The notes beneath the pieces were generated by a model. The model saw only the letters and a list, made by a program, of their open reading frames with translations, was not told where the DNA came from and searched no databases. The position numbers and the translations under genes were made by a program. Shown here one piece after another: positions 9,358-31,180 of a stretch of 37,640 bases of DNA (its first letter is position 1; every line of letters starts with the position of its first letter). This DNA comes from a virus. The stretch is from UHGV virus genome UHGV-1707198; one strand, given 5' to 3'.

Positions 9358-12300
9358 ATGTGGTACAGGGAAGGTACTATCACATTTACACAGGGCAGCA
9401 ATACTCTGGTTGGGGCAGGGACAGCCTGGAACGTAACAGCTAATGGTGTGTTGCCGGGGATGATCGTCATTGGCCCCGACAATAAGCTGTATGAGATCAA
9501 GCGCGTAACCAGTGATACGAACATTGTTCTCTCAGAACCCTATACCGGCGAAACTCAGTCTGAAGTTCCGTGCCGAATCATTACGACCTATGAAGGCGAC
9601 TTAACACAGTTTAGCGCGCGCTTTACAGCACTAATGTCGCGTATGTCGGCTGATTCCAAGTCCATGCGCAGTTGGTTGACTGCTCTGGATGAGGTGACAA
9701 TCGAGCGTGAAGACGGTACAGAAGTGACCGTTAAGCCGCTAATGCAGATCGTCAACGAGCACAACGAAAACGTTGAGTGGTATAAAAATAACACTGACGC
9801 GATTGATGCTGCTGGCGACAAAGCTCGTGAGGCGGCGGCCAGTGCTGCCGCAGCAGCAGAAAGCGCCAATACCGCTGGAGAAAAAGCCTCTCAAGCGTCT
9901 CAAAGTGCATCCGCTGCAGAGTCCTCAAAAAGCGCGGCGGCCACCAGTGCCGGTGCCGCGAAAACGTCTGAAACGAATGCTGCAGCGTCACAAAAATCTG
10001 CAGCCACTTCTGCATCCACCGCGACCACGAAGGCGTCAGAAGCTGCCACCTCAGCCCGGGATGCGGCGGCCTCAAAAGAGGCAGCGAAATCATCAGAAAC
10101 GAGCGCAGCCTCGAGCGCCAGTAATGCCGCTTCCTCGGCAACGGCGGCAGGAAATTCCGCGAAGGCGGCAAAAACGTCCGAGACGAACGCCAGGTCTTCT
10201 GAAACGGCAGCGGGACAGAGCGCCTCGGCTGCGGCAGGCTCAAAAACAGCGGCTGCGTCGTCTGCCAGTGCCGCGTCAACAAGTGCCGGGCAGGCCTCAG
10301 CCAGTGCCACCGCCGCCGGAAAATCGGCAGAAAGTGCCGCATCATCTGCTTCAACAGCCACAACGAAGGCTGGCGAAGCCACTGAACAGGCCAGCGCAGC
10401 AGCGAGGTCTGCTTCCGCAGCGAAGACATCCGAAACGAACGCGAAAGCGTCGGAAACCCGTGCAGAATCCTCAAAAACGGCAGCCGCATCGTCCGCCAGT
10501 TCGGCAGCGTCATCGGCATCATCTGCGTCTGCTTCAAAAGATGAGGCGACCAGACAGGCGTCAGCAGCGAAGGGCAGCGCCACGACGGCATCCACGAAAG
10601 CAACAGAGGCGGCAGGCAGTGCGACGGCAGCATCTCAGAGCAAAACTGCTGCTGAATCCGCTGCGACCCGTGCGGAAGCTGCTGCTGATCGTGCTGAAGA
10701 GATTGCCGGTGCAGTTGCGATGGAAGACGCAAGCCTTACAACTAAAGGTGTTGTGAAACTTAGCAGTGCTGTCGACAGCACCAGTGAATCGCTGGCCGCA
10801 ACGCCAAAAGCAGTTAAAGTAGTCAATGACAATGCGAACAGCAGGGTGCCATCTAACCGAAAAATTAACGGGAAAGCACTGACTGCGGATATCACATTAA
10901 CGCCGAAAGATATTGGTACTTTAAATTCAATAACGATGTCTTTCTCTGGCGGGGCCGGGTGGTTCAAACTGGCTACTGTTACAATGCCACAAGCGAGTTC
11001 CATCGTTTACATCGCATTGATTGGTGGCGCTGGTTACAACGTCGGCTCCCCACATCAGGCAGGCATTTCAGAACTGGTTCTACGAGCAGGCAATGGAAAC
11101 CCCAAAGGGATTACAGGTGCTTTGTGGAAGCGTACAGCTGTCGGATTAACGAATTTCGCCTGGATCAACACATCCGGCGATACATATGATATTTACGTTG
11201 AAATTGGCAATTATGCGACGAGTGTAAATATCCATTGGGATTGTACTGCAAATGCGTCAGTTTCTGTTTATACATCGCCAACATATTCAGCGAGTAAGCC
11301 TTCCAGCGTTACCGATGGTGTTGTTTATACGATGTATAGCACACATCAGAAACCGACGCCGTTAGATATTGGAGCACTGCCAACAACCGGAGGAACAGTT
11401 TCAGGTCCGTTGTCTGTTACTGGTGGGATCACCGGAACATTAAATGGTAATGCAAGTACAGCAACGAAATTGCAGACGGCAAGATCTATCGGTGGAGTTG
11501 GTTTCGACGGTTCTGCAAATATCAACCTTCCAGGTGTAAACACTACGGGTAATCAGAACACCACTGGTAATGCTGCAACTGCTACAAAACTTCAGACTGC
11601 AAGAAAAATATCCGGTGTTCCATTTGATGGTTCTACTGATATCACTTTAACCGCTGCGCATGTTGCCGCTTTCGCAAGAAGGGCAACAGGGTCATATGCG
11701 GATGCTGATGGTGGCGTGCCGTGGAATGCTGAATCTGGTGCTTACAATGTAACTAGAACAGGCGACAGTTATATTCTTGCCAACTTTTATACCGGTGTAG
11801 GTAGTTGCCGTACGCTTCAAATTAAAGCTCACTATAAAAATGGTGGTCTGTTCTACCGTTCCTCAAGAGATGGCTATGGTTTTGAAAGTGGTTGGGAGCA
11901 GGTTTACACGACTGGATTTATGCCTCAGCCGGCTGATATAAACGCACCAACCGCTGCCGCTGGATGGTTAAATAGTGGTAACGGAACGGCATTTACGACT
12001 GCTCAATTTATAACTTGGCTAAACAATCAGGGGGCATTTACAAACAAACATTGGATCGCACGGTGCTCATGGACTTACGCCAACAATAATTATATAGACG
12101 ACACTGGTTGCGGTAGGATCGATCTATCTGGTTCCGTGATTGAGGTGTTTAGTAATAAGGCAACAAGCCACTACACTATTCGTGTTACAACGACAACAAC
12201 ATCAGGTCATGGTGGTGTTAATAATGCGGAATTTATTTATGTGTACAATGGGAGTGATTATGCGCCAGGCTGGCGTCGTTCTTATAACACTAGAAACAAA

Positions 12301-13656
12301 CCAACAGCTTCTGATGTAGGAGCATTACCGCTTTCAGGTGGCACATTATCTGGAGGGTTGACGTCTTCTGGTGAGATCGTTTCAAAATATGCAAATGGTT
12401 TCCGCATTGCTTACGGTAACTACGGGTTCTTTATCCGTAATGACGGCGGCAGCACATATTTCATGCTAACAGCATCAGGAGATACGTTAGGTTCATGGAA
12501 CAGTTTGCGACCGATTATAATTAATAATAGCAGCGGTGTTGTGTCTATTGGTAATGGACTAAATGTTACTGGTGGCGTAAATGGTAGCTTGAATGGCAAT
12601 GCTTCAACAGCTACGAAGTTGCAAACAGCGAGAAACATCAATGGTGTTAAGTTTGATGGTTCAGGTGATATCAATATTAATACATTGGTTTCTCGTGGTC
12701 GAGTTACGGCTTTAAGCGGTTCTACTCAAGGTACTGCTGGCATTCAAATGTACGAGGCGTACAACAATAGCTACCCGACCACGTATGGCAACGTATTGCA
12801 CATGAAAGGTGCGAGTGCTGCTGGTGAGGGCGAGTTGCTTATTGGCTGGAGTGGTACGAGCGGTGCACATGCGCCGGTTTTCATTCGCTCCAGAAGAGAT
12901 ACCACTGATGCGGCATGGTCAGCGTGGGCGCAGGTATATACCGCTAAGGATTCAATCCCTGGTGTGAATACAACCGGTAATCAGAATACTACTGGTAATG
13001 CCGCAACAGCCACAAAATTGCAGACAGCAAGGAAAATTGCTGGTGTGGCGTTTGATGGCTCTGCCGATATTACTTTGACTGCGGCTAACCTTAATGCTTA
13101 TACGAAAACAGAGGTAACAAACCTTCTAAGTTCCTATGCAAGCAGATCATCACTGACAGGCTATAGTGGCAACCTGGATATTATTGCTGAAACACTGGTT
13201 GTCAAATCAGGCGGTAGTGGAGGGTTTGCTATATGGGATATTGGCACAACTACTAGCGGTGCCAATATGTACATTGATCCAAACCCAGGTATCAATACAG
13301 TTTGGCGTTCAACATCTTCAAGGCGCTATAAAAAGGATATTGAAACATTACAAGATCGATATGCTGATGAACTTTTGTCATTAAGACCTGTTTGGTATCG
13401 TTCAATTTGTCGAGGTGACCGAAAGGATTGGGGGTATTACGGCCTTATTGCTGAAGAGGTTGGTGAGATTGCCCCGCAATATGTCCATTGGCGTGAACCA
13501 ACAAATAATGATTCTCCAGGAGATATTTCCTCAAATGGTATGGTCGCTGAAGGAGTGATGTATGAGCGTTTGGTTGTACCACTCATTCATCATATTCAGC
13601 AATTGACCAAAAGGGTTGAGGAGCTTGAAACGAAGTTAAATTCACCTAAAGAATAA
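9358..13656 (+). CDS. side tail fibre protein with C-terminal S74-type intramolecular chaperone domain
   Basis: 1432 aa; GGAG ribosome-binding site. Ala/Ser/Thr-rich degenerate repeats (KTSETNA, SASAA) at residues about 160-460, like lambdoid Stf-type fibres as I recall them. Repeated GNASTATKLQTARxIxGVxFDGSxDI fibre motifs. C-terminus (DIETLQDRY...GLIAEEVGEIAPQYVHW) resembles the self-cleaving chaperone of T5 pb1 and endosialidase-type fibres. Confidence 0.8.
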   Translation: MWYREGTITFTQGSNTLVGAGTAWNVTANGVLPGMIVIGPDNKLYEIKRVTSDTNIVLSEPYTGETQSEVPCRIITTYEGDLTQFSARFTALMSRMSADSKSMRSWLTALDEVTIEREDGTEVTVKPLMQIVNEHNENVEWYKNNTDAIDAAGDKAREAAASAAAAAESANTAGEKASQASQSASAAESSKSAAATSAGAAKTSETNAAASQKSAATSASTATTKASEAATSARDAAASKEAAKSSETSAASSASNAASSATAAGNSAKAAKTSETNARSSETAAGQSASAAAGSKTAAASSASAASTSAGQASASATAAGKSAESAASSASTATTKAGEATEQASAAARSASAAKTSETNAKASETRAESSKTAAASSASSAASSASSASASKDEATRQASAAKGSATTASTKATEAAGSATAASQSKTAAESAATRAEAAADRAEEIAGAVAMEDASLTTKGVVKLSSAVDSTSESLAATPKAVKVVNDNANSRVPSNRKINGKALTADITLTPKDIGTLNSITMSFSGGAGWFKLATVTMPQASSIVYIALIGGAGYNVGSPHQAGISELVLRAGNGNPKGITGALWKRTAVGLTNFAWINTSGDTYDIYVEIGNYATSVNIHWDCTANASVSVYTSPTYSASKPSSVTDGVVYTMYSTHQKPTPLDIGALPTTGGTVSGPLSVTGGITGTLNGNASTATKLQTARSIGGVGFDGSANINLPGVNTTGNQNTTGNAATATKLQTARKISGVPFDGSTDITLTAAHVAAFARRATGSYADADGGVPWNAESGAYNVTRTGDSYILANFYTGVGSCRTLQIKAHYKNGGLFYRSSRDGYGFESGWEQVYTTGFMPQPADINAPTAAAGWLNSGNGTAFTTAQFITWLNNQGAFTNKHWIARCSWTYANNNYIDDTGCGRIDLSGSVIEVFSNKATSHYTIRVTTTTTSGHGGVNNAEFIYVYNGSDYAPGWRRSYNTRNKPTASDVGALPLSGGTLSGGLTSSGEIVSKYANGFRIAYGNYGFFIRNDGGSTYFMLTASGDTLGSWNSLRPIIINNSSGVVSIGNGLNVTGGVNGSLNGNASTATKLQTARNINGVKFDGSGDININTLVSRGRVTALSGSTQGTAGIQMYEAYNNSYPTTYGNVLHMKGASAAGEGELLIGWSGTSGAHAPVFIRSRRDTTDAAWSAWAQVYTAKDSIPGVNTTGNQNTTGNAATATKLQTARKIAGVAFDGSADITLTAANLNAYTKTEVTNLLSSYASRSSLTGYSGNLDIIAETLVVKSGGSGGFAIWDIGTTTSGANMYIDPNPGINTVWRSTSSRRYKKDIETLQDRYADELLSLRPVWYRSICRGDRKDWGYYGLIAEEVGEIAPQYVHWREPTNNDSPGDISSNGMVAEGVMYERLVVPLIHHIQQLTKRVEELETKLNSPKE
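11532..11660 (+). repeat. intragenic direct repeat copy A (fibre motif block)
   Basis: About 130 bp at roughly 80% identity to 12961..13090; both encode GVNTTGNQNTTGNAATATKLQTARKI(S/A)GV(P/A)FDGS. Confidence 0.7.
12961..13090 (+). repeat. intragenic direct repeat copy B (fibre motif block)
   Basis: Partner of 11532..11660; a third, shorter related copy lies at about 12590..12690. Confidence 0.7.
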
Positions 13657-16550: not shown

Positions 16551-16970
16551 ATGCTAAATTATCATGACAATACGCGTTCTATGCAGACGATCCGCACCAA
16601 TACTGCGGTTATCGACAGCTTTCCTATGCGTATTCACAACAGTGAAGACGCAGTAGAAGTGCGACGTATGTTGTGCCGTGAATCAGCTAACCGCCAGCAC
16701 TTCATCGTCACTTTTAAGAGCGATGTGGCGCGTGCCGAAAAGGTCTCTAATTCTACGTCACTGGTTAAACCGTTGGCCGAGGTTGTCGCTAACGGTAAAC
16801 GAACCTCTTTTGTTTTAGATGTTGCTGAACAATATCCTGACTTGAAGTGTTTAGATCGTGATATTTCTTCACGAATCAAACAAGTTGTAGAGTCTTTTAT
16901 GAAGAAATTCTGTAAAATCGATGATATGGAACCATCAACGGCACAGAATACTTCATGGCACCATCTCTAA
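16551..16970 (+). CDS. hypothetical protein
   Basis: 139-aa ORF with AAGGTGGA ribosome-binding site; overlaps the next gene by 16 nt. Confidence 0.4.
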   Translation: MLNYHDNTRSMQTIRTNTAVIDSFPMRIHNSEDAVEVRRMLCRESANRQHFIVTFKSDVARAEKVSNSTSLVKPLAEVVANGKRTSFVLDVAEQYPDLKCLDRDISSRIKQVVESFMKKFCKIDDMEPSTAQNTSWHHL

Positions 16971-17728
16971 TTGGTCAGGCGAACAGATTAATCCCTGAAA
17001 TAGAAGACTACAGCAAGGTCTTGTCTGAAATGCCGAGAGCGACGAGAATTATCGCTCTCGGTGAGTTCTATTTTATCTCCCGAGGTTTCGATCTAATTCG
17101 ATTTACCGAATACGAGCTTGTTGATTCGGCCTATGAACGCTGTATTGTTGGCGAGTGTCTTGAGTCATGTGATCCTGATTACCAAGAGCAGGAAGTTAAG
17201 CGACTCAAACGTGCTGGTTACACACCTCTTGAGATAGGAGCAGAAATTGAATCCTACAAGTTGCATGTGGGGCAGCCAGTCCAAACAGTCTTCCGCGTGG
17301 CCTACTGCGAGTTTCCAATCAAGGATAAATCTGGAGTAAAAGTCAGCGCCAAGCAGATTAGAGGGGTTTTTACTCATGCTGATTATATGGGATTAGGCAT
17401 CGCAAGTTTTGCTTACCTTTATCTCGTAGATAAGTATCAGTACTTGGTTTGCGATACGTTACAGACGATAAAAGGCGCAACTCTTTGGGCTGTGAGTATG
17501 CGCAAACATGGACTGGTCGAAATTTACGATACGAAGAACGAAAATTTTATAGAGGAATTGGGTGAGGATGCCTGTGGCGTAAGTGGTTTTATTCCGTGGG
17601 ATATCGGTAAGTCTGACGGAGGCCAGATGCGAAGACGTGAAGAGTGGGGGACTAATAAAATCAATCTCACCCCAGGTGCTTGTACTCATATAGTGAACAT
17701 TCTGAGTAAACGATCTATGAATCAATAA
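16955..17728 (+). CDS. hypothetical protein, possibly acetyltransferase-like
   Basis: 257 aa; the HADYMGLGIASFAY segment loosely resembles a GNAT acetyl-CoA-binding motif; weak. Confidence 0.35.
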   Translation: MAPSLIGQANRLIPEIEDYSKVLSEMPRATRIIALGEFYFISRGFDLIRFTEYELVDSAYERCIVGECLESCDPDYQEQEVKRLKRAGYTPLEIGAEIESYKLHVGQPVQTVFRVAYCEFPIKDKSGVKVSAKQIRGVFTHADYMGLGIASFAYLYLVDKYQYLVCDTLQTIKGATLWAVSMRKHGLVEIYDTKNENFIEELGEDACGVSGFIPWDIGKSDGGQMRRREEWGTNKINLTPGACTHIVNILSKRSMNQ

Positions 17729-17780: not shown

Positions 17781-17876
17781 AACCTTTACACCGCAGCCGT
17801 AGGCATTTAGGCTATATCACATATAAGAAAACAAGTTGTTTCAGACGATAATTATATACGCAAAGGGAACTCTCCA

Positions 17877-18545
17877 ATGACCAAGATCTTTGTGGTTGGC
17901 GGCACAAAGGGCGGGCCTGGCAAATCCACCGTTGCCCAGCAAATTGCCGTTTGCCTGAAAGTCAAAAAGAAGAAGAAGGTTTATATCACTGATATAGATA
18001 TTCAGCGCACGACAACAAGCTGGTGTGAAGACCGTCGACAGAACGAAGACCTTGAGCTGATTCCTTTTGCATACGTTCAGGATGACATCATTAAGCACCT
18101 AAAATCGCTTCAGGGTAGAGCTGAGTTTGTAGTGGTAGATGCTGGTGGCTTTGACTCCGAAATTCAGCGACAAGCGATGCTGATGGCCGACGTTATCATT
18201 ATCCCGCTTCGTCCTAAGCGTCGTGATTTGAAATCTCTGCGTGACATTGATCCTATTATCGACAATGTTCGTAATGTAAACGATAAAGTGAAGGTCCGCG
18301 CGGTCATGAACCAGTGCCCGGCTTTGCCATCACAAGTGTCTCGCATTCTGGCGGCTAAAGAGATTGTTGAGACGTTTGGCATCGAGTCTGCGCCAGTCAA
18401 TCTATATAACCGCAACGTCTATGATGATGCGGAAGAGTCTGGTCGTTCTATCTTTGAAATGACCGGTAGCGAGCGCGACAAAAAGGCGGAAGCCGAGTTT
18501 GAAGAATTTGTAGATTATCTGTTGAGTCTGGAGGAAGAAGAATAA
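17877..18545 (+). CDS. ParA/ParF-type partition ATPase
   Basis: 222 aa; N-terminal deviant Walker A (VVGGTKGGPGKST); small size typical of type Ib partition ATPases; AAAGGGA ribosome-binding site. Confidence 0.7.
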   Translation: MTKIFVVGGTKGGPGKSTVAQQIAVCLKVKKKKKVYITDIDIQRTTTSWCEDRRQNEDLELIPFAYVQDDIIKHLKSLQGRAEFVVVDAGGFDSEIQRQAMLMADVIIIPLRPKRRDLKSLRDIDPIIDNVRNVNDKVKVRAVMNQCPALPSQVSRILAAKEIVETFGIESAPVNLYNRNVYDDAEESGRSIFEMTGSERDKKAEAEFEEFVDYLLSLEEEE

Positions 18546-18904
18546 TGTCCATGAAAATGGGTGACCTAGCAAAGCGCAAAGAGCCTGATGCACCGGCTAA
18601 GAACACAACTCCTTTGCGCCAACCAGTCAGACCACAGGGACGCCCGACTCGTGGCAAAGAGAAAATTAAAAGCCGCACAATGTCACTGGAAGACGAATAC
18701 TTCGAACTGCTGGAGATGATGAAGTTCATCCCTCGCTTCGAGAAGTTCACTCGTTCTGACGTGATTCGAGCAGCCATTTTCCATCTGGCAGAGAAGTCAC
18801 CGCAGGAAATCGAGGACATCGTGAAGCTTAACGAGGCGATCACAGCTGCCGACGTTACGATGCGTACCGATGAAATTAAACGAGAGTTGATGAAGAAAGG
18901 TTGA
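18545..18904 (+). CDS. putative partition DNA-binding protein (ParG/ParB-like)
   Basis: 119 aa, start overlaps the ParA stop (TAATG); basic N-terminus; function inferred from operon position. Confidence 0.4.
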   Translation: MSMKMGDLAKRKEPDAPAKNTTPLRQPVRPQGRPTRGKEKIKSRTMSLEDEYFELLEMMKFIPRFEKFTRSDVIRAAIFHLAEKSPQEIEDIVKLNEAITAADVTMRTDEIKRELMKKG

Positions 18905-18908
18905 TTAT

Positions 18909-18937
18909 ATTGGGCGTTTGTTACGCCCAATATATGA
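18909..18937. promoter_or_regulatory. perfect 12-bp-arm palindrome (terminator or operator)
   Basis: TATATTGGGCGT-ttgtt-ACGCCCAATATA, read directly; lies between the partition operon and the KAP NTPase gene. Confidence 0.4.
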
Positions 18938-18955
18938 ATTAAAGGATTGATACTA

Positions 18956-20650
18956 ATGGAATCGATAGAATCATTTCTAAAAAATTTTCTAGTTTCAGAT
19001 CATCGGGTTGCCGTCATAAAAGGAGATTGGGGCGTTGGTAAAACTCATTATTGGAATAGTTTTTATACTAAGCATTCTGAAGGATTAGATTTTAATGCAT
19101 ATTCGTATGTTTCTTTGTTTGGGGTTAACTCTATTGGTGATATTAAAAAAACTCTTTATCATTGTGCCACACCAATTAATGAAAAGAAATATAAAGAACT
19201 AATTTTATCTGAAACGGATCGAACTATGATTCGTTATAGAAATGGGTTTTGGGGATGGTTGAAATACAACTCCTTGTCAAAATTTTTAATACATTTCGGA
19301 AAGATCGATTTTTTTGGGTTCAAAACAGATAACCTGCTGTCATCTCTTGAGTATAAATTTGTTAATAATTATTTGGTTTGTATTGATGATGTTGAAAGAA
19401 AAGGTAATTCGCTAGAAGTTAAAGAAATTATGGGGGTAATTGATGAATTAGCAAGAAGAAAAGGTTGCAAAGTTGTTCTAATTTTAAATGAAGATAATTT
19501 ACATGATGAAACTGCAAAAAAACAGTTTTTAGAGTACAGAGAAAAAGTAATTGATGTCGAAATAAAATACGATCCTACGCCTGAGAAGAACTTACGTAAA
19601 GTTTTTTATGAAACTGATTCTGATTTTCTTTTGTTAAAAGTCTTAGCAAATGACTTAGGCATTAAAAATATCCGTATATTAAATAAAATAAAAACATCTC
19701 TGGTTAATCTTAGGAATGAGCTAAGCTTGGCAGAGGATAAGGTTAGAGAAAGCTTTATCAATAGATTGGTTCTGTTTTCAGTGGTTTACTATTCTGGTGT
19801 TCCAGGTGTTGATTATGCCTTGTTTAAAGAATCAATTAAAAACATACATGTATTTGATTACATGTTAGATGATAAAAAGGATGATTCTGTATATTCATTT
19901 ATTAATAGTCTTGATGTTATTTATGAACGAGCGGAAATTGCTTTCGATGATGACATAGATTTTTATCTCAAGAATGGTTATCTTTCTACTGAAAGCAATA
20001 TTCGAGGTATAATAGAAGAAAAAAATAAACAATATAAAGAACACAAGGCTTTATGTGATGTTAACAATGTTTGGGATATTTTTAGTGACTCATTCAAGGA
20101 CAATGAATCTGAGTTTATTTCTAAGATAAAATGTGTAATTAACGACAATCTTTCACACATACCTGTTGCTCACTTCATAGGCTTGATTGATATCTTAAAT
20201 AGATTGGAGATTGATTGTGATAGTTATATAGAGGCATATGCAGATGCCTTTGTTAGCCAAGATGATGCTTATACTGCTTTTCGGAATTTGTATGTAGAGA
20301 TATTTGGTAACGAAAAGTTAGGTCTGCTAATTCAAAAAAAATTGATGGATAAGAAGCCTGAAGAGACTAATTTAGAGAATGTTTTATACAAAATAATTGA
20401 AGGCAAATTTAATCATAGTGACATAGCATATCTTAACAGTTTCTCTGAAGATGATTATTTAAAGTGGATATTATCCCGCAATCAGGATGCTTTGGATTTA
20501 GTGAGAAAGGGGTTGCTCAGATTCAAAAGTATGCAAGAACTAACAGAAGAACAGCAAAAAATCACGAATAAAGCAATAGGTGCATTAACGAAACTGGCCT
20601 CTAGATCAAGTCTTAACAAACTACGTGTGAGCAGATTGCTTAATAATTAA
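18956..20650 (+). CDS. KAP-family-like P-loop NTPase
   Basis: About 565 aa from the ATG at 18956 (AAGGA ribosome-binding site 9 nt upstream). Walker A GDWGVGKT fits the G-x-W-G-x-GKT KAP signature; Walker B-like LVCIDDVER about 110 residues later. Strongly AT-rich and Lys/Asn/Ile-rich, unlike neighbouring genes. Confidence 0.55.
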   Translation: MESIESFLKNFLVSDHRVAVIKGDWGVGKTHYWNSFYTKHSEGLDFNAYSYVSLFGVNSIGDIKKTLYHCATPINEKKYKELILSETDRTMIRYRNGFWGWLKYNSLSKFLIHFGKIDFFGFKTDNLLSSLEYKFVNNYLVCIDDVERKGNSLEVKEIMGVIDELARRKGCKVVLILNEDNLHDETAKKQFLEYREKVIDVEIKYDPTPEKNLRKVFYETDSDFLLLKVLANDLGIKNIRILNKIKTSLVNLRNELSLAEDKVRESFINRLVLFSVVYYSGVPGVDYALFKESIKNIHVFDYMLDDKKDDSVYSFINSLDVIYERAEIAFDDDIDFYLKNGYLSTESNIRGIIEEKNKQYKEHKALCDVNNVWDIFSDSFKDNESEFISKIKCVINDNLSHIPVAHFIGLIDILNRLEIDCDSYIEAYADAFVSQDDAYTAFRNLYVEIFGNEKLGLLIQKKLMDKKPEETNLENVLYKIIEGKFNHSDIAYLNSFSEDDYLKWILSRNQDALDLVRKGLLRFKSMQELTEEQQKITNKAIGALTKLASRSSLNKLRVSRLLNN

Positions 20651-20680
20651 GTATTCATGACCTGTTTCTGTATATATAAA

Positions 20681-20700
20681 TAATAAGTAACTTATTAAAT
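20681..20700 (+). promoter_or_regulatory. recurrent motif, distal copy upstream of gene 20831
   Basis: TAATAAGTAACTTATTAAAT, a partial dyad. Confidence 0.35.
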
Positions 20701-20797
20701 ATACGGAAGCAGGTCTTTCAAAAGATACCCACCAGAACAACTCCCTTCCGTTTCCACTTCCAAAAACTGCCACCAATCGCTATCATCAGCTCATTGC

Positions 20798-20819
20798 GAT
20801 AAGTAAGTAACTACCTACC
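20798..20819 (+). promoter_or_regulatory. recurrent motif, proximal copy upstream of gene 20831
   Basis: GATAAGTA-agtaac-TACCTACC. Confidence 0.4.
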
Positions 20820-20830
20820 AGGTGAGCCAC

Positions 20831-21571
20831 ATGAGCCAAATCTTTTTCGACACCATCGACAACGACCAGTACGACTTCATGACAGAGTGGAATACCGCTG
20901 TTATGGATAAGTGGGTTGCTGAAAACATTGGTTTGTCGCGCTGCAAAGACGAGGCTGAACTCTTCGATACGAAGTGGTTTGATTACCGCGACATGCATCC
21001 TCTTATGGCCACCTGTCTGTTTACGGAGGCATACAAACGTCAGTACTCAAATATCATGCTGACGCACGGTCGTGAACACTTTGAAACAGCTCCGTTCACC
21101 ACCGGGTTAAAACGCCTGCCTTATCAGGAGTTGTCGACTGCCAATAAAACGTCTCTATGGAAAGCACGCCAGTTTGCTGACCGCTATTGCTGCTCATACG
21201 ACTACTTTATCTCCACCGTTCTTTCCGCAGCTGCACGACGGCTGTGGGACAAGCTGCCGCGCCCACAGCATTTATGGCAGCCAGAACTGATTGAGATATT
21301 TGAAGAGAAATTAGCCAGACGCGCAACAACCCGTCTGGATGACTCTCTTGTTAGCTTTAAGCATATGGGAGACATGCAGTTCAACCCGATTCAGGAAAGC
21401 TATTTTGAGTGGATTCTGGAGCGTTTGCGCACCATCCCTCGCAGCAAGCGCATACGCGCAATTTTCTCCGCTATCTGGCTAATGGAAATCGTTCCAGAGC
21501 GCCTTATTTCCGCCCACTTTCCAGAAGAACTGGAAGAAGCACGGCGGTTTATTGATCCCCTATCTAATTAA
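20831..21571 (+). CDS. hypothetical protein (possible replication accessory factor)
   Basis: ATG at 20831 with AGGTGA ribosome-binding site; precedes the helicase gene; no motif recognised. Confidence 0.4.
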   Translation: MSQIFFDTIDNDQYDFMTEWNTAVMDKWVAENIGLSRCKDEAELFDTKWFDYRDMHPLMATCLFTEAYKRQYSNIMLTHGREHFETAPFTTGLKRLPYQELSTANKTSLWKARQFADRYCCSYDYFISTVLSAAARRLWDKLPRPQHLWQPELIEIFEEKLARRATTRLDDSLVSFKHMGDMQFNPIQESYFEWILERLRTIPRSKRIRAIFSAIWLMEIVPERLISAHFPEELEEARRFIDPLSN

Positions 21572-21614
21572 CTAATACTAGAAAACAATTTGTTTAAAAA
21601 ACAAAGGAAAGCAC

Positions 21615-22955
21615 ATGACCGAACTTTGCCATACAGGACGCGGGCTGTCCGAAGAGTTTGATGAAGATTTCCAGAACAGACTGACGGCATATTTTTGTCG
21701 TGATCACGAGTTTCTTACTCGTGCGGGAGATCTGGTTGTGCCTAGCCAATTTGCCAATGCGGCCAATGCCATATTGGTTAATATGGTTTCGGGCTATTAC
21801 CGTATGTACAAGAGCGCGCCCTCTTCATCTGCAATTCTGGATATGCTTAAGCGTGCGAAACGCGATAAGACTATCCGTGAGGAACTATTCGCCGATGTTG
21901 TTGCTGCGTTTAAGCGCATTCTTGCAGAAAAATTGTCCGATACCTCGTACATGGTTGACCAGGTATCAACCTTCGCAAAAAGTGTAGCGTTTGATGATGC
22001 TCTGATTAAGGCTGCTGAACTGAAAGAGAAAGGCGACTTTCAGGGGGCGATGGCAATCATGGCCAAGGTTCAGCAGATTGGATCGAACGAAGCGACCGGA
22101 ATCTATGACTACTACACCTCCGCAAGTGAGCGATTGAAAGCGCGTGAATATGAGGCTTCAGAGGAGTATGTACCAAACAGTATTACAAGTGGACTCCCTC
22201 TTCTCGATAGGTTGCTGTACCAAAAAGGCTGGGCAAAGCGCGAAATGGTGCTCTTCATGGGGTTCGCTAAATCCGGTAAATCGACCGCAATGGGTGAGTT
22301 TTCCATAAACGCAACACTTGCTGGCTACAATGTTCTGTATCTCTCGCTGGAGGTTCACACCACCATTTTATCCGACCGTTTTGATGCAAGATTGTCGGAG
22401 ACAGAAATGTCCAAGCTGGTGGAACGGCGCGATGAGGTTCATCGTAAGTTGGCAGAGTTGGGAGCCACAAAGGGGATTGGTAGTTTGTGGGTGGTTGAGC
22501 GTCCGTCAGGAAGTATGTCACCGGCAGATCTGGACCGTATGCTTAACAGCATGAAAGCCAACGGCATGGTACCTGACATGGTTGTTGTCGACTACGCAGA
22601 TTTGATGCGTGCCAGTTATGACCTTCGTGATGATCGCGCCAACATTCGTAGTATCTACACCGATTTACGTGCTCTTTATGACAAGCATAACGTTGCTGGG
22701 ATCACGGCATCGCAGACAAACCGTGAAGGTGGCGCGTCAGAAGTTGCCACAATGATGCACGCTGCCGACAACATCGAAAAAGTACGTATTGCTGACCTGG
22801 TAATAACGATCAACAAAACCGAAGAAGAAGAAGCGAAAGGAGAGGCTCGTCTCTACTTTGCTGGTTCACGTAACCAGCAGGGAGGGATCAGCATTCGCGT
22901 TAAACAAAACCTCGAACAAATGCGCTTCATTGAGCGAATCTTAGACGTTACCTAA
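21615..22955 (+). CDS. DnaB-like replicative helicase
   Basis: 446 aa; Walker A GFAKSGKST in the C-terminal half and Walker B-like VVVDYADLM, the arrangement of DnaB/RepA-type helicase cores. Confidence 0.55.
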   Translation: MTELCHTGRGLSEEFDEDFQNRLTAYFCRDHEFLTRAGDLVVPSQFANAANAILVNMVSGYYRMYKSAPSSSAILDMLKRAKRDKTIREELFADVVAAFKRILAEKLSDTSYMVDQVSTFAKSVAFDDALIKAAELKEKGDFQGAMAIMAKVQQIGSNEATGIYDYYTSASERLKAREYEASEEYVPNSITSGLPLLDRLLYQKGWAKREMVLFMGFAKSGKSTAMGEFSINATLAGYNVLYLSLEVHTTILSDRFDARLSETEMSKLVERRDEVHRKLAELGATKGIGSLWVVERPSGSMSPADLDRMLNSMKANGMVPDMVVVDYADLMRASYDLRDDRANIRSIYTDLRALYDKHNVAGITASQTNREGGASEVATMMHAADNIEKVRIADLVITINKTEEEEAKGEARLYFAGSRNQQGGISIRVKQNLEQMRFIERILDVT

Positions 22956-23036: not shown

Positions 23037-24218
23037 ATGAGCCTTTATGTTATATCAACATTTAGGTTGGTCACAATATTGCCTGTTAAAAGTGGAATTA
23101 TCGTGAGCGAGCTGAAAGAGCTAATTACCGAATTAGATTTTGAACAATGGTTGGATACTGAAGGTATCGTTTATCGACGTGGAGGCGTGAGTACTCGCGG
23201 TCGTGAAGTGAATATCAAGGAGTGTCCGGTATGCGGCAGCTCCAACTGGAAGGTATATTTCAATCTGACCAGTGGCGTCGGCAAATGCTTCGCTGGTGAT
23301 CATCCCGAAGAGATTCAGTTCAATAAGCTGGTCTTCCTCAAGCACTACAGCGGTAAATCACGACGACAGTTCGAGGAATATGTGCAGAACGCTCTTCTTT
23401 CCCAGGGGTGGGCACCAAAGAAAGAAGAGCTAGTGCTTGCAAGCACAGTCGAGTTAGAGGGGCCAGTTGCACTCCCTCGTCATTACGAGCTTCCTATAGA
23501 TGGCCGTCTTCCAGACTATCTGGTTGAACGAAACATATCACCTGAAATGGCAAAGTATTTTGACCTACGATACTGCGTCGAAGGCAAGCACGCTTATGTA
23601 GATCCGTATACAGATCAGGTAAAAGGGCAGATATTCGATATGCGAATACTGATACCGGTTTACGATCTGGATGGGGTAATGAAGACATTTCAGGGACGAG
23701 ACATTACCGGTACAGCAGAACGCCGCTACCTCTTTCCTATGCAGCTTCCAGCTTCAGGTAAGTTTCTCTACAACGGCCATAATGCAGTCGGCAAACAGAC
23801 TGTAGTTGTCTGTGAGGGGGCGTTCGATGTTATGGGGGTTAAACGAGCTATTTTTGACGAAGAAACATTACGTGATTACGTGGAACCAATAGGAACGTTC
23901 GGGATGCATCTATCTGGTAACACCACTCAGGATGCAGAAGATCAGTTAGGCGCGTTCCTGACGCTCAAGGCGCGTGGGTTACGTAATGTGATCATGATGT
24001 GGGATAGTGAAAAGCAAGCTATACGCAACACTATGGCCGCAGCCAGGCGACTGAGCAGTATTGGTCTTAATGTGAAAATTGCATGTTTGGGCGAGGAAGG
24101 ACTCGACCCCGGCGATGCGACCCCGGGGCAGATTATCAAAGCCTACTATTGCGCAAAACCTTACTCACGACAGCTTGAACTCTTAAGCAAGGTGAAAGGC
24201 ATTGCAGCACTAGTTTGA
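23037..24218 (+). CDS. DnaG-like DNA primase
   Basis: Cys/His zinc-finger-like motif CPVCGSSNW...CFAGDH and a TOPRIM-like VVVCEGAFD segment. Start uncertain: the ORF track begins at GTG 22965 inside a hairpin, so ATG 23037 or GTG 23103 is more plausible. Confidence 0.55.
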   Translation: MSLYVISTFRLVTILPVKSGIIVSELKELITELDFEQWLDTEGIVYRRGGVSTRGREVNIKECPVCGSSNWKVYFNLTSGVGKCFAGDHPEEIQFNKLVFLKHYSGKSRRQFEEYVQNALLSQGWAPKKEELVLASTVELEGPVALPRHYELPIDGRLPDYLVERNISPEMAKYFDLRYCVEGKHAYVDPYTDQVKGQIFDMRILIPVYDLDGVMKTFQGRDITGTAERRYLFPMQLPASGKFLYNGHNAVGKQTVVVCEGAFDVMGVKRAIFDEETLRDYVEPIGTFGMHLSGNTTQDAEDQLGAFLTLKARGLRNVIMMWDSEKQAIRNTMAAARRLSSIGLNVKIACLGEEGLDPGDATPGQIIKAYYCAKPYSRQLELLSKVKGIAALV

Positions 24219-25355
24219 ACCAGTATTAGTCACATACACATTGACCGAAAATGATTTAACTTCTGTATTGAAGTTGTCAGTCATTACCGCGAGGTAGGCA
24301 TTCTTGGTATCTCTGAATTGCTTCAGGATGATTTGAACGTTATCGGTGCAAACAAACGAGGTAGCCAGATTGCCTCCTTTCTCTGAAAAATCCTTCAGGA
24401 AGGTGCAGTCAACTTTGCCATCATTAGCGGTGAAGGTAGCATCATCACCCTGCCAGGTAAATGTAGCGTTAACGCCCTTATCAATGGATTTAGCAATAAG
24501 TCGCTGGGTGGCGGATTTTGTTTTGGCTTTGGAAGCCGGCGCTCGATATTTGCCGCTTTCTTTCAGTTCTGCAATGTAATCGCAGCCTCTTTTTTCTCCT
24601 TTATCGCAAGCAGTCTGATAAAGGTCGGCTGCTTTTTTATAGTCCTTTTTTACACCTTCCCCATTCTCATACATAATGCCAAGATTGGTTATGGCGTCGG
24701 CGTTTCCAAGTTCCGCTGCCTTTTTATACCACTTAACTGCTTCTGCATCATTGCGTTTAACGCCTAACCCATCATCGTATAGTATTCCTAATCCTATCAT
24801 AGCTTCTGAACTGCCTTGGTCTGCCGCCTTTTTGTAATAAGTAAAAGCCTTTTTATAATTCTTTTTAACGCCTTTACCATATTGGTAATACGCCCCAAGA
24901 ACTGAAGTTGCTTTAACATACCCGGCATCAGAGGCTAGTTTGAAGTATTTAATGGCGAGTGCATGATCTACTTTACCAAGCATCCCCTTTTGATAAATAG
25001 CACCAAGATTGTTGTAGGCTCTACCTTCACGAGCATCCCCCGCAAGTTTGTAGTACTCAACAGCTTTATTTAGGTCTTTATCTACACCCTCGCCAAATGT
25101 GTACATAACTCCAAGTGCATAATATGCTACTTTATCTCCCTTTTCTGCAGCTAGATCAATCCACTTCTTGGCCTCAACTACATCCTTATCAAAACCATTG
25201 ACACCATCAAAATAATTTGTACCTAACTCACTTTGTGCTGCGGTATCCCCTGCGGTAGCGGCTTCTATCAGCGTTTGTTTATTGTCTGCGTTAACGAATC
25301 CAGAGTTAAAAAGCAAAGTTAATGCCAGCAACGATGAAGATTTTATGTATTTCAT
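24210..25355 (-). CDS. secreted Sel1-like repeat (TPR-like) protein
   Basis: Start taken at MKYIKSS (plus-strand CAT at 25353..25355), giving a Sec-type signal peptide. At least six repeats of the form A..WYKKAAEQG...A...LG.MY..G.GV.KD, characteristic of Sel1-like repeats. Confidence 0.6.
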   Translation of the reverse strand: MKYIKSSSLLALTLLFNSGFVNADNKQTLIEAATAGDTAAQSELGTNYFDGVNGFDKDVVEAKKWIDLAAEKGDKVAYYALGVMYTFGEGVDKDLNKAVEYYKLAGDAREGRAYNNLGAIYQKGMLGKVDHALAIKYFKLASDAGYVKATSVLGAYYQYGKGVKKNYKKAFTYYKKAADQGSSEAMIGLGILYDDGLGVKRNDAEAVKWYKKAAELGNADAITNLGIMYENGEGVKKDYKKAADLYQTACDKGEKRGCDYIAELKESGKYRAPASKAKTKSATQRLIAKSIDKGVNATFTWQGDDATFTANDGKVDCTFLKDFSEKGGNLATSFVCTDNVQIILKQFRDTKNAYLAVMTDNFNTEVKSFSVNVYVTNTGSN

Positions 25356-25587
25356 GTTTTTTTTCTGTTGATATAGGATGAACAGTTTAGACGCGGCAAG
25401 CGTCAAGTGTGCGAAAAAGGGTACTTAAATTTAGTTAATATGTCAGCTTTGTTGATTTAGTTTATGGTCGGTAAAGTTACTGGGAAACTAATAACCATAA
25501 GAAATAGTACGCCATTTAATTATTGTGGCACTGCTCGTGTTTTGATTAACTAATACCTGCGATAAATATAAATAAAGGGAAGCCAAC

Positions 25588-26970: not shown

Positions 26971-27441
26971 GTGAAAGCTGATTTGTCAAAAATCCCTTCT
27001 ATTTCAGGAAATAACAGTTATTCACTTCGTTGTGAGGAAGTAAAGATAAACGGTGAGTCGGCATATTGCAGCTATTCCGTTTGCCAGCACACCATTCTTG
27101 CCTTCAAAGAAAACCGTCTTCCTCGAACTTCTTTCCAGTCGTGCGCAACCGCTATTAAAGCAGGCAAATGCAAGGCGTTAAAAATGATGGTTGAAGAGAT
27201 TCGTAAAGGAGAATCTCTGTATTTTGAAGATATGACCGCACTCATTAAGGAGGTTGAAGAACGGAATAAACAAGCCAGAACTATAAAACGAAAACGTGAC
27301 GGTGTAACGATTAATAGCATGGTTAAGAAGAGCGCCACATCACAAACAGCGATCACTGACGTGTATGCGGCGTTGCTTGAAGAAACAACAAAAGAAACAC
27401 ATGAGCAAATCGATCAACATATGGAGGCAAAACAACAATGA
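26971..27441 (+). CDS. hypothetical Cys-containing protein
   Basis: 156 aa, GTG start; several Cys in the N-terminal 75 residues (C-x12-C-x4-C ... C-x7-C); stop overlaps the ligase start. Confidence 0.4.
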   Translation: MKADLSKIPSISGNNSYSLRCEEVKINGESAYCSYSVCQHTILAFKENRLPRTSFQSCATAIKAGKCKALKMMVEEIRKGESLYFEDMTALIKEVEERNKQARTIKRKRDGVTINSMVKKSATSQTAITDVYAALLEETTKETHEQIDQHMEAKQQ

Positions 27442-28760
27442 AAAAGTTGATCGCACTTAAGCATAAGCTGGACGAAATGAAAGCTATGGGAACCAATGCA
27501 AAAAAAGAGGCATTGGCCAACATGGATGACTTTGAACAAAGCATGGTTTCATTGATGCTCAACCCTTTCATCCGTTTTGGGGTAAAGAAATACAAAGTGG
27601 CAGAGCCGCTTAGTGAGTCCGTCCCAAGTGACGAAAAAGCCATTGATATACTGAATAAGCTGGCCTCTCGCGAGCTAACGGGGAACGCAGCAATAGCAGC
27701 TGTTGAGTCTATCGTGGCGTCAATGTGCGCCGATGGGCAGGACGTGTTCCGTCGTTTCCTCTTAAAAGACCCGAAAGCAGGTGTTGGGATTAGCCTATGC
27801 AACAAGGTTTTTGAAAATCCCATTCCGAAATTCGAGGTGCAGCTGGCGTCACCGTATAAAGAAAAAGGCGACAAATACCCCTTCAAGCCAAATCCTAAAG
27901 CAAAATGGCCGATGATTGGCAGTCTTAAGCTCGATGGTTTGCGAGTAATTTGCGAGGTTATTGTTGACGAGGAAGAGGTTAACTTCCTTTCTCGTACTGG
28001 TAATCCAATCACGTCTCTCGATCACCTAAAGCCAGCAATGCTCGAATTAGGCAAACTTTCAGGCCACAAACACATCTTCTTCGATGGTGAAGGAACAGCC
28101 GGTTCATTTAACCAGTCCGTATCTGCATTGCGCAAAAAGAACGTGCAGGCAATTGGCGCTATTTATCATGTTTTCGACTTCTTCCTACCGGAATGGCGGG
28201 CACAGGCTAAATCCAAAGAGTATGCAAAGACAGGTATGAAGCTGAAAGAGCGCCTGGCTATGCTGGTGGCGTTGTTTAAAAACGATCGCAGTGAAGGCTA
28301 CGCACAAGACATTCACCTGCATCCGTTCTATATCATCCATAGCCACGAAGATTTCATCGAACGCTTCATGAAACGCCTGGACGATAACGAAGAAGGGGAG
28401 ATGGGCAAAAATCCGAACTCTGTTTACGAGTTTAAACGTACCCGCAGCTGGTGGAAGTTAAAAGACGAAGATTCAGAAGATGGTGAAATTATCGACTTTG
28501 AGCCGGGCGACCCGGACTCTGGTTTTGCCAACACGCTTGGAAAAATTGTTATTCGCCTTGAAAACGGTGTGATTGTTCGTGCGAGCGGCATTAAGCATAA
28601 ATATCTGGACGAGATCTGGAACAACAAAGAGAAGTACCGTGGTCGTATTGTCGAGGTTCATTGTCACGAGAAAACGCCGGATGGCAGCTTACGCCACCCA
28701 CGACTGAAATGGCCGCGTTGCTTACGCGATACAGAAGATCGAATCGGAGATAAAGAATGA
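27438..28760 (+). CDS. ATP-dependent DNA ligase
   Basis: 440 aa; KLDGLR matches nucleotidyltransferase motif I (KxDG); FFDGEGTAG and the C-terminal EVHCHEKTPDGSLRHPRLKW region are consistent with motifs III and VI. Confidence 0.65.
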   Translation: MKKLIALKHKLDEMKAMGTNAKKEALANMDDFEQSMVSLMLNPFIRFGVKKYKVAEPLSESVPSDEKAIDILNKLASRELTGNAAIAAVESIVASMCADGQDVFRRFLLKDPKAGVGISLCNKVFENPIPKFEVQLASPYKEKGDKYPFKPNPKAKWPMIGSLKLDGLRVICEVIVDEEEVNFLSRTGNPITSLDHLKPAMLELGKLSGHKHIFFDGEGTAGSFNQSVSALRKKNVQAIGAIYHVFDFFLPEWRAQAKSKEYAKTGMKLKERLAMLVALFKNDRSEGYAQDIHLHPFYIIHSHEDFIERFMKRLDDNEEGEMGKNPNSVYEFKRTRSWWKLKDEDSEDGEIIDFEPGDPDSGFANTLGKIVIRLENGVIVRASGIKHKYLDEIWNNKEKYRGRIVEVHCHEKTPDGSLRHPRLKWPRCLRDTEDRIGDKE

Positions 28761-30916: not shown

Positions 30917-31003
30917 GGAGAGTAGGGAGCATGGTGCTCAAGCGGTCTTGAAAACCGTCCCATTGTGCAAACGATGATGGTTCGATTCCATTACTCTCCG
31001 CCA
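30917..31003 (+). tRNA. tRNA-Ser (anticodon TGA), long variable arm
   Basis: Acceptor GGAGAGT/ACTCTCC, anticodon stem-loop GCGGT-CTTGAAA-ACCGT closely resembling E. coli tRNA-Ser(UGA) as recalled, T-loop TTCGATT, encoded CCA. Confidence 0.75.
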
Positions 31004-31157: not shown

Positions 31158-31180
31158 AAAGGGGCTTCGGCCCCTTTTTT
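31158..31180. terminator. bidirectional rho-independent terminator
   Basis: AAAGGGGC-ttcg-GCCCCTTTTTT, with A-run and T-run on either side; sits between the tRNA cluster and the convergent minus-strand gene. Confidence 0.55.

What the first reader, a model, noticed from the sequence alone, without database searches (positions are those of the whole stretch)
18956..20650. AT-rich KAP-type P-loop NTPase inserted between partition and replication genes: candidate defence or abortive-infection gene
The gene has a Walker A of the form G-x-W-G-x-GKT (GDWGVGKT), which is the signature I know for the KAP NTPase family, and a Walker B-like hhhhDD. Its codon composition (Lys/Asn/Ile/Phe-rich, very low GC) contrasts with its neighbours, suggesting recent acquisition. 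It is bounded by a perfect palindrome at 18909..18937 upstream and the recurrent-motif intergenic region downstream. Accessory P-loop NTPases in mobile elements often act in exclusion of competing phages.
Basis: partly seen in the sequence, partly recalled or inferred. Interest (0 to 1): 0.65.

Follow-up and report, generated by a model that had tools for sequence, protein, structure and literature searches.

The report
Swappable KAP NTPase cargo gene, phage-plasmid
This is a real, intact accessory gene for a soluble KAP-family ATPase fused to a helical-repeat domain, sitting in a swappable cargo slot of an SSU5-like phage-plasmid; other copies of the element carry known or candidate anti-phage genes there, so it is a credible but untested single-gene defence candidate rather than a new kind of system.

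Summary
ORF 18956-20650 (+) encodes 564 aa with Walker A GDWGVGKT and Walker B LVCIDDVER. It passes the Pfam KAP_NTPase cutoff (24.9 vs 20 bits). Its GC is 0.31 against 0.47-0.49 in the flanks.

The window is an SSU5-like E. coli phage-plasmid. The gene fills a precise slot between the stop codon of the small gene after parA and a conserved hairpin ahead of the replication genes. One Salmonella relative has this slot empty (27 nt). Other relatives fill it with a PD-T4-3-like GIY-YIG protein, DUF2971 proteins (PADLOC PDC-S31) or unknown genes. Only 28 of 264 complete E. coli genomes with this backbone carry the KAP gene.

KAP homologues at 40-44% amino-acid identity occupy the same slot in Klebsiella and Salmonella elements. 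More distant ones are solitary low-GC genes in an ICE and in chromosomal islets.

The protein has an AAA+/STAND-like NTPase domain, no transmembrane helices, a C-terminal alpha-solenoid and no recognisable effector fold. PADLOC finds only partial similarity to candidate PDC-S49 and no hit to Tmn. PifA shares only the motifs.

Most likely it is a single-protein anti-phage or anti-mobile-element sensor and NTPase switch. The function is untested. I rate it a new member of a known kind, of moderate interest.

The parts
17877..18545 (+). ParA-type partition ATPase, conserved backbone on the left side
   Evidence: ORF. The equivalent gene in relatives carries Pfam CbiA/ParA/MipZ hits. It is 99-100% nt identical in E. 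coli relatives whatever cargo they carry.
18545..18904 (+). 119-aa gene after parA (presumed ParB-like partner; PHROG 5111). Its stop codon is the left edge of the cargo slot.
   Evidence: It is 95-98% nt identical in E. coli relatives. Similarity between cargo types ends right after its stop codon. The ParB role is inferred from position only; there is no Pfam hit.
18906..18934 (+). Cassette-specific hairpin: 12-bp perfect stem, 5-nt loop, terminator-like but without a clear T-run
   Evidence: dG -18 kcal/mol, z -4. Eight occupied loci (six distinct hairpin sequences) have a hairpin at this position, -16 to -24 kcal/mol. The empty site and SSU5 have none. The simple terminator scan did not call it.
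18942..18946 (+). Shine-Dalgarno-like AAGGA, 9 nt before the ATG
   Evidence: Read from the sequence. No convincing sigma-70 promoter lies between the hairpin and the ATG.
18956..20650 (+). KAP-family P-loop NTPase gene, 564 aa, GC 0.31
   Evidence: (PHROG 4740 full length, E 4.9e-165).
19022..19045 (+). Walker A GDWGVGKT (aa 23-30)
   Evidence: Sequence. Invariant in 38 homologues.
19238..19333 (+). Hydrophilic, low-confidence insert (aa 95-126) between Walker A and Walker B
   Evidence: pLDDT below 50. This is one of the more variable blocks of the family alignment. Highest 19-residue Kyte-Doolittle hydropathy in the whole protein is 1.35. Papers place a two-helix transmembrane insert inside the P-loop domain of Tmn; that this insert is the equivalent site is my inference.
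19373..19399 (+). Walker B LVCIDDVER (aa 140-148)
   Evidence: Sequence. D144, D145, E147 and R148 are invariant.
19721..20647 (+). C-terminal all-alpha solenoid domain (about aa 256-564), the fast-diverging half
20659..20715 (+). Conserved backbone hairpin followed by CTTTC; right edge of the cargo slot and likely terminator
   Evidence: dG -26.6, z -6.3. Present in every allele examined, and 27 nt after the stop codon in the empty site.
20822..21571 (+). 249-aa backbone gene (PHROG 2500, function unknown) ahead of the helicase
21615..22955 (+). DnaB-like replicative helicase, start of the replication module
   Evidence: DnaB_C/AAA_25 Pfam hits in relatives. Annotation.

Best explanation
The gene is exchangeable cargo in a dedicated slot of an SSU5-like phage-plasmid. 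The slot lies between the partition operon and the replication module and is bracketed by two hairpins.

Its product is a soluble, stand-alone KAP-family NTPase. It has an AAA+/STAND-like nucleotide switch joined to a C-terminal alpha-solenoid.

Most likely it acts as a single-protein immune sensor that protects the lysogen, and so the element itself, against other phages or mobile elements. The proposed mechanism has three steps:

1. The variable solenoid recognises an invader component.
2. Recognition releases the NTPase into an active, probably oligomeric, ATP-hydrolysing state.
3. That state halts the infection, either abortively or by blocking replication.

Low-level expression in the plasmid state probably comes from read-through of the hairpin after the partition operon.

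Shown here: family membership, domain architecture, absence of transmembrane helices and of any enzymatic effector fold, accessory status, slot boundaries, the empty site, the defence-type neighbours in the slot, and purifying selection. Inferred: the defence function, the sensor role of the solenoid, oligomerisation, the outcome for the cell, and the route of transcription.
For: **Family and motifs:** Pfam KAP_NTPase above its cutoff. Walker A and B are invariant in 38 homologues.

**Family size:** 1658 clusters at 50% identity with E below 1e-30. Of the 150 best listed, most are 530-610 aa and match the profile end to end; about ten are shorter, N-terminally truncated proteins.

**Defence databases:** best PADLOC hit is the candidate PDC-S49, E 1.3e-21. 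In several family members the match extends to profile position about 400-420 of 624.

**Accessory cargo:**
- Flanks are 95-100% identical in E. coli relatives that hold other genes.
- The site is empty in pSAN1-1735.
- 28 of 264 backbone-positive complete E. coli genomes carry the gene.
- The family occurs in 116 plasmids; the backbone flanks occur in 734.

**Company in the slot:** a PD-T4-3-like GIY-YIG protein (E 1.6e-23) and DUF2971/PDC-S31 proteins (E 1e-33 to 1e-41).

**Stand-alone and mobile:** homologues sit inside an ICE conjugation module, next to IS66, near an integrase, or as solitary islets. There is no conserved partner gene, and GC is 27-35% whatever the host.

**Selection:** dN/dS is 0.23 overall between the two E. 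coli alleles. The C-terminal third is much more divergent, with dN/dS up to 0.46. dS is 0.56 against 0.04-0.22 in the flanks, which indicates allele exchange rather than divergence in place.

**Literature:**
- KAP NTPases fused to unknown C-terminal regions protect E. faecalis and need both Walker B and the C-terminal region (PMC13552941).
- PifA of plasmid F is described as a KAP member without transmembrane helices that aborts T7 infection (PMC13001434).
Against: - No experiment bears on this protein or on its close family.
- The PADLOC match is to an unvalidated candidate and is only partial: 66-101 bits, with the last third of the profile unmatched.
- No effector domain is recognisable, so how infection would be stopped is open.
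- The chromosomal contexts sampled are not obvious defence islands.
- Some plasmid copies appear frameshifted, so the gene is dispensable (hits H122 and H138).
- No dedicated promoter was found.
- A DefenseFinder survey of SSU5-group elements does not list a KAP system.
Confidence: 0.55

Rival explanations
1. The protein works in competition between mobile elements rather than against lytic phages. It would exclude or destabilise incoming related phage-plasmids, plasmids or ICEs by sensing one of their proteins.
For: It sits between the partition and replication modules of a plasmid-like element. A homologue is embedded inside the conjugation gene cluster of an ICE. Others are on Legionella and Rhizobium plasmids. 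Alleles differ between elements that otherwise share nearly identical backbones.
Against: There is no specific evidence for a plasmid target. The characterised KAP-type proteins act on phages. Many homologues are in chromosomal islets with no mobile element nearby.
Confidence: 0.15
2. The protein is an accessory factor for maintenance of the phage-plasmid itself, such as partition, replication control or an addiction function. Its position next to parA would then reflect a shared task.
Confidence: 0.08
3. The protein is a counter-defence factor. Its solenoid would bind and neutralise a host immune protein, helping the element to establish in new hosts.
For: Phage-plasmids carry anti-defence genes. 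Helical-repeat domains are common protein binders.
Against: Strictly conserved ATPase motifs and a 564-aa size are unusual for known inhibitors (my general knowledge, not tested here). The nearest database relatives are defence candidates. The other occupants of the slot are defence-type genes.
Confidence: 0.07
4. The gene is hitch-hiking or decaying cargo with no current benefit to the element or host.
For: Apparently frameshifted copies exist. The gene is absent from most relatives.
Against: The reading frame is intact and about 99% conserved across many E. coli and Shigella sonnei contigs; cluster P0003 alone is on 928 contigs. dN/dS is 0.23, and catalytic motifs are invariant over deep divergence. 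The full-length architecture is conserved across 1658 clusters.
Confidence: 0.1

Closest known systems
PADLOC candidate system PDC-S49 (single-gene phage defence candidate, unvalidated)
   Same: It is the best and only defence-database hit family. The P-loop domain aligns, and in several family members the match extends into the helical region to profile position about 400-420 of 624. The length is similar, about 560-630 aa, and both are single-gene.
   Different: Scores are modest, 66-101 bits, and the C-terminal third of the profile is never matched. This is a sister family rather than a core member. I found no paper that names PDC-S49.
PifA of plasmid F (KAP family, excludes phage T7)
   Same: It is carried on a plasmid-type element, is described as lacking transmembrane helices, has the same GxWGxGKT Walker A and hhhhDDLxR Walker B, and has a large helical C-terminal part.
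   Different: There is no detectable similarity beyond the motifs: BLASTP E 0.08, and hhalign probability 43% over 71 columns. PifA is 741 aa and sits downstream of its repressor gene pifC; no such partner exists here.
KAP P-loop NTPase proteins fused to unknown C-terminal regions (EF_KAP and three metagenomic proteins; PLoS Biol 2026, PMC13552941)
   Same: The architecture is a KAP NTPase followed by roughly 300 aa with no known domain. They are single genes on mobile DNA. Defence there needs both Walker B and the C-terminal region.
   Different: EF_KAP is modelled with two transmembrane helices; this protein has none. I did not compare the sequences because they were not available to me. Those proteins come from Firmicutes and gut metagenomes.
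Tmn (Gao et al. [quoted passage not shown]
   Same: It is a single-protein NTPase defence with helical sensor arms. Recognition of a phage protein raises ATP turnover.
   Different: Tmn has two transmembrane helices inside the P-loop domain and forms a membrane decamer. This protein is predicted soluble and gave no PADLOC hit other than PDC-S49 at E up to 1.
STAND/Avs-type NTPase sensors
   Same: The layout is an NTPase switch plus a helical-repeat sensor. Weak fold matches include Avs4, Apaf-1, CED-4 and NLR resistosomes. There is a weak nSTAND3 hit at E 0.01.
   Different: The nSTAND3 hit is below the Pfam cutoff, 16 against 27.2 bits. There is no N-terminal effector domain, and the protein is far shorter than Avs proteins (Avs4 chains of about 1,530-1,540 residues).

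Membership tests
KAP family P-loop NTPase (Pfam PF07693) | Profile match above the curated gathering score | tested here: met
   24.9 bits against a cutoff of 20, E 1.5e-5, aa 12-254 on profile positions 12-278 of 293. Nearly all listed homologues carry a precomputed PF07693 hit.
KAP family P-loop NTPase (Pfam PF07693) | Walker A of the form GxWGxGKT and Walker B hhhhDD followed by an acidic/Arg pair | tested here: met
   GDWGVGKT at aa 23-30 and LVCIDDVER at aa 140-148, invariant across 38 homologues. F-plasmid PifA has GAWGSGKT and VVMDDLDR.
KAP family P-loop NTPase (Pfam PF07693) | Transmembrane helices associated with the NTPase domain (present in many members; PifA is reported to lack them) | tested here: not met
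   The highest 19-residue Kyte-Doolittle hydropathy is 1.35, and 0.78-1.60 across the 38 homologues, against the usual threshold of about 1.6. The insert at aa 95-126 is hydrophilic and low-confidence. This is not disqualifying, since PifA is described as a KAP member without transmembrane helices.
KAP family P-loop NTPase (Pfam PF07693) | Helical (alpha-superhelical) region accompanying the NTPase domain | tested here: met
PADLOC PDC-S49 | Full-length, high-scoring match to the PDC-S49 profiles | tested here: not met
   75 bits over aa 3-223 only, profile positions 8-214 of 624. Ten other family members score 66-101 bits and reach at most about position 420. It is a relative, not a member.
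Tmn / YobI-family transmembrane NTPase | Two transmembrane helices inside the P-loop domain and a match to the Tmn profile | tested here: not met
   No PADLOC hit other than PDC-S49 at E up to 1. No transmembrane segment.
PifA-like exclusion protein | Sequence homology to F-plasmid PifA beyond the NTPase motifs, and linkage to pifC | tested here: not met
   BLASTP E 0.08. hhalign probability 43.5% over 71 columns around Walker B. No pifC-like neighbour.
STAND NTPase | Match to a STAND NTPase profile above its cutoff, and a three-part effector-NTPase-sensor layout | tested here: not met
   nSTAND3 scores 16 bits against a cutoff of 27.2. No effector domain was found. Fold similarity to NLR and Avs proteins is generic to AAA+ domains.
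Anti-phage defence system (functional class) | Reduces phage plating or protects the culture when expressed, dependent on catalytic residues | not testable with these tools
   The evidence is indirect only: slot companions PD-T4-3-like and PDC-S31, the PDC-S49 relative, and literature on other KAP proteins.

The most novel reading that the evidence does not exclude
The gene may represent a large uncharacterised family (about 1,650 clusters at 50% identity) of soluble, effector-less KAP-solenoid immune proteins. In these the NTPase itself, once released by target recognition through the fast-evolving solenoid, would be the effector, for example by ATP depletion or by trapping an invader or host factor in an oligomer. 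SSU5-like phage-plasmids would then maintain a hairpin-insulated defence slot between their partition and replication modules, in which such sensors are swapped by homologous recombination.
Probability: 0.2. Interest if true: 0.65.

Novelty: new member of a known kind. Interest (0 to 1): 0.42.

Why it matters
SSU5-like phage-plasmids are common in clinical E. coli, Shigella sonnei, Salmonella Typhi and Klebsiella. What they carry in their variable slots may affect which phages, including therapeutic ones, can grow on their hosts.

KAP NTPases have only recently been shown experimentally to defend bacteria, and how they act is unknown. The mechanism of PifA is also unresolved. This soluble, single-gene family offers useful material for addressing that:

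- two natural E. coli alleles that differ mainly in the C-terminal domain;
- a natural empty site as a reference;
- a confident structure model.

This makes it a workable system for asking how a KAP NTPase senses and stops an invader. It would extend a known theme rather than open a new one.

Tried and rejected
- **NCBIfam scan:** no family.
- **PDB sequence search with the family profile:** nothing at E up to 1.
- **Comparison with F-plasmid PifA:** motifs only.
- **Promoter and terminator scan:** no credible dedicated promoter. The consensus scan missed both hairpins because neither is followed by the T-run it requires.
- **Rfam on 18400-21000:** only sub-threshold chance hits.
- **The "recurrent motif" downstream:** the hairpin arm and the TAAGTAAC core do not recur elsewhere in the window beyond chance.
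- **Literature:** no paper names PDC-S49. None that I found describes this slot as a hotspot.
- **Low GC as proof of recent acquisition:** rejected, because low GC is a family-wide trait.
- **The palindrome as an insertion scar or att site:** rejected, because each cassette type has a different hairpin at the same place and there are no flanking direct repeats.
Full report
**1. What is there**

The window is part of an SSU5-like phage-plasmid. Region 17800-22000 is 98.9% identical to Escherichia phage CMS-2020a (CP054387) and 99.8% identical to E. coli plasmid pG749_2. It shares its flanks with phages Cyrano, PhiR41_1 and SSU5.

The local gene order is tail genes, lysis genes, two small ORFs, parA (17877-18545), a 119-aa gene (18545-18904), the finding (18956-20650), a 249-aa gene (20822-21571), a DnaB-like helicase (21615-22955) and a primase.

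The ORF is intact at 564 aa. An AAGGA sits 9 nt before the ATG. RefSeq calls the product a "P-loop NTPase fold protein".

**2.

- Walker A GDWGVGKT (aa 23-30) and Walker B LVCIDDVER (aa 140-148) are present. They are invariant in an alignment of 38 homologues down to 27% identity.
- Pfam KAP_NTPase is matched above its gathering score: 24.9 against 20 bits, aa 12-254.
- GC is 0.306 against 0.47-0.49 for the four neighbouring genes.
- The upstream palindrome exists but lies at 18906-18934, three bases left of the stated coordinates. It folds at -18 kcal/mol, z -4.
- The downstream spacer holds a 57-nt hairpin at 20659-20715, -26.6 kcal/mol, z -6.3.

**3. It is exchangeable cargo in a defined slot**

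I compared each segment with nine related loci.

- In E. coli relatives, parA, the 119-aa gene, the 249-aa gene and the helicase are 95-100% identical.
- Similarity stops exactly at the stop codon of the 119-aa gene and resumes at about 20657, at the foot of the conserved hairpin.

Occupants of the slot in relatives:

| Element | Occupant of the slot |
|---|---|
| pECOH89, Cyrano, SSU5 | DUF2971 protein |
| PhiR41_1 | 255-aa reverse-strand gene |
| pTLYA-2 | 250-aa plus 140-aa pair |
| pERB3f3, NZ_CP024271 plasmid | 352-357-aa reverse-strand gene |
| NZ_CP020118 plasmid | second KAP allele, 76% aa identity |
| Salmonella Anatum pSAN1-1735 | empty |

In the empty site, the stop codon is followed by 27 nt and then the conserved hairpin. 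The hairpin is therefore probably the ancestral terminator of the partition operon, and all cargo lies upstream of it.

Eight of the occupied loci examined (six distinct hairpin sequences) begin with a strong hairpin of -16 to -24 kcal/mol within a few bases of the stop codon. SSU5 and the empty site do not.

No recombinase, direct repeats or att-like sites flank the slot. Exchange by homologous recombination in the conserved flanks is the simplest reading; this is an inference.

**4. Frequency**

- Among 5,426 complete E. coli genomes, 264 carry the partition backbone and 28 carry the KAP gene. Of these, 21 are at 98% nt identity or higher and 7 at about 84%. All copies are on plasmids, most of about 110 kb (101-161 kb), and none is chromosomal.
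- In PLSDB, 734 plasmids share the flanks and 116 carry a member of the family: Klebsiella 74, Escherichia 21, Salmonella 2, with distant members in Legionella and rhizobia.
- The near-identical protein is abundant in Shigella sonnei; one 99% variant is found on 928 contigs.
- A few copies look frameshifted.

**5. The same family recurs in the same slot**

Klebsiella phage-plasmids carry a 572-aa homologue at 40% identity. Salmonella ones carry a 567-aa homologue at 44% identity. Both sit exactly between the gene after parA and the gene before the helicase. The flanks there are 77-89% nt identical to the window.

Between the two E. coli alleles:

- dS is 0.56 for the KAP gene against 0.04-0.22 for the flanking genes.
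- dS varies tenfold along the gene, from 0.13 to 1.67.
- The N-terminal 240 residues are 87-97% identical, while residues 361-564 are only 53-61% identical.
- dN/dS is 0.11-0.15 in the N-terminal part and rises to 0.38-0.46 in residues 421-540; it is 0.23 overall.

The alleles are therefore older than the backbones they sit in, are exchanged between them, and are under purifying selection. The C-terminal domain changes fastest.

**6. The wider family**

A profile search of 1.84 billion representative proteins gave 1,658 clusters at E below 1e-30. Of the 150 best listed, most are 530-610 aa and match the profile end to end; about ten are shorter, N-terminally truncated proteins.

Contexts sampled:

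- inside the conjugation gene cluster of a Salmonella salamae ICE;
- a solitary gene between housekeeping genes in Pragia, Vreelandella, Ectopseudomonas and a metagenomic scaffold;
- next to IS66 in Oleispira;
- near an integrase in another metagenome.

There is no conserved neighbouring gene. GC is 27-35% in every case, including 31% inside a 59-60% GC ICE. Low GC is a trait of the family, not a date stamp.

KAP-type homologues also occur in Burkholderia, Bacillus SPbeta-like and Campylobacter prophages. PHROG 4740 matches the protein end to end and is labelled function unknown.

**7. Structure**

- AlphaFold2 with the family alignment gave pLDDT 84.1 and pTM 0.65.
- Residues 1 to about 255 form a five-stranded P-loop core with a helical lid.
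- A low-confidence hydrophilic insert lies at residues 95-126.
- The rest of the protein is all-helical.
- The C-terminal domain modelled alone (pLDDT 90.9) matches only HEAT/ARM-like and designed solenoids, Z no higher than 7.9. No nuclease, protease, TIR, pore or other effector fold was found.
- No 19-residue window reaches transmembrane hydropathy; the maximum is 1.35.
- No sequence relative has a solved structure.

**8. Relation to known systems**

- **PADLOC:** the only hit is the candidate PDC-S49, at 75 bits and over the N-terminal domain only. Ten other family members score 66-101 bits and reach profile position about 400-420 of 624. The family is related to PDC-S49 but is not part of it. 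No Tmn, Avs or other model was hit.
- **PifA:** F-plasmid PifA is a plasmid-borne KAP protein reported to lack transmembrane helices and to abort T7 infection. It shares only the Walker motifs with this protein.
- **Validated KAP proteins:** a 2026 study showed that four KAP NTPases fused to unknown C-terminal regions protect Enterococcus faecalis. Walker B and the C-terminal region were both required. That paper states KAP NTPases had not previously been followed up as defences.
- **Tmn:** now assigned to the YobI family. It senses T2 RIIB through helical arms and raises ATP turnover.
- **Slot companions:** the PhiR41_1 gene matches PD-T4-3 (E 1.6e-23; Pfam GIY-YIG). The DUF2971 genes match candidate PDC-S31 end to end.
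- **Independent survey:** a DefenseFinder survey reports PD-T4-3 among SSU5-group elements of E. coli and Shigella but no KAP system.

**9. Most likely function**

The evidence points to a stand-alone, horizontally circulating sensor-switch protein. It has a conserved NTPase, a fast-evolving helical-repeat domain and no partner gene, and it sits where related elements carry defence-type genes.

I therefore favour a single-protein anti-phage or anti-mobile-element defence, with confidence of about 0.55 for the function. In this model the solenoid detects an invader component and releases the NTPase into an active, probably oligomeric state.

What then stops the infection is unknown. ATP consumption or sequestration of a target are the options that fit a protein with no effector domain.

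Transcription by read-through from the partition operon would give low expression in the plasmid (lysogenic) state. This is inferred from the 51-nt spacer, the hairpin and the lack of a promoter.

The rivals remain open at lower probability: inter-element exclusion, a maintenance role, counter-defence, or neutral cargo.

**10. Verdict**

The finding is a well-supported but untested defence candidate. It is a new member of a known kind, namely KAP NTPase defence proteins and prophage or plasmid defence hotspots. The slot anatomy, the empty site and the two-allele system are useful details. None of it would greatly surprise a specialist.

Noticed in passing
window 31196-32458 (- strand): A second low-GC island (GC 0.32-0.36 over about 31000-32500) holds a 420-aa ORF. 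It has no Pfam hit, a full-length match to PHROG 18168 (function unknown) and a weak PADLOC hit to the PtuB (Septu) profile, E 9e-4. It may be another accessory or defence-type cargo gene.
   Followed up: partly
window 16551-17728 (+), upstream of parA: The two ORFs before parA (139 aa and 257 aa; PHROGs 2594 and 3307, unknown) have no nucleotide match in most relatives. Cyrano carries a KacT toxin-antitoxin pair on the opposite strand at that position. There seems to be a second variable slot between the lysis genes and parA.
   Followed up: partly
window 20659-20715; L022 1229-1287: The long hairpin is conserved in every SSU5-like relative examined, and its arms tolerate T/C differences. In the empty-slot plasmid it lies 27 nt after the stop codon of the gene downstream of parA. 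It could be the partition-operon terminator, a regulatory site for the replication genes, or both.
   Followed up: partly
window 20683-20697 and 20799-20813: An ATAAGTAAC-type motif lies in the hairpin loop and recurs just upstream of the 249-aa gene (80% match). It was not found elsewhere in the window.
   Followed up: partly
window 10001-10500: This stretch has GC 0.626 and AT skew 0.39, inside the 1432-aa tail-protein ORF (9358-13656). Long overlapping ORFs occur in other frames and on the other strand (9752-10756), which suggests a compositionally biased or repetitive segment.
   Followed up: no
window 24210-25406 (- strand): A 398-aa protein with six Sel1 repeats (Pfam E 1.5e-53; PHROG 8741) is encoded on the opposite strand, right after the primase gene.
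   Followed up: no
window 27438-28760 and 33089-34192: An ATP-dependent DNA ligase domain protein (440 aa) and a tyrosine integrase or recombinase (367 aa) are encoded in the plasmid-like half of the element.
   Followed up: no
plasmids NZ_CP053233.1 (H122), CP109700.1 (H138), CP133154.1 (H151): In these records the KAP reading frame is matched in 3-4 separate pieces or only partially, so some copies appear to be frameshifted or truncated pseudogenes.
   Followed up: no
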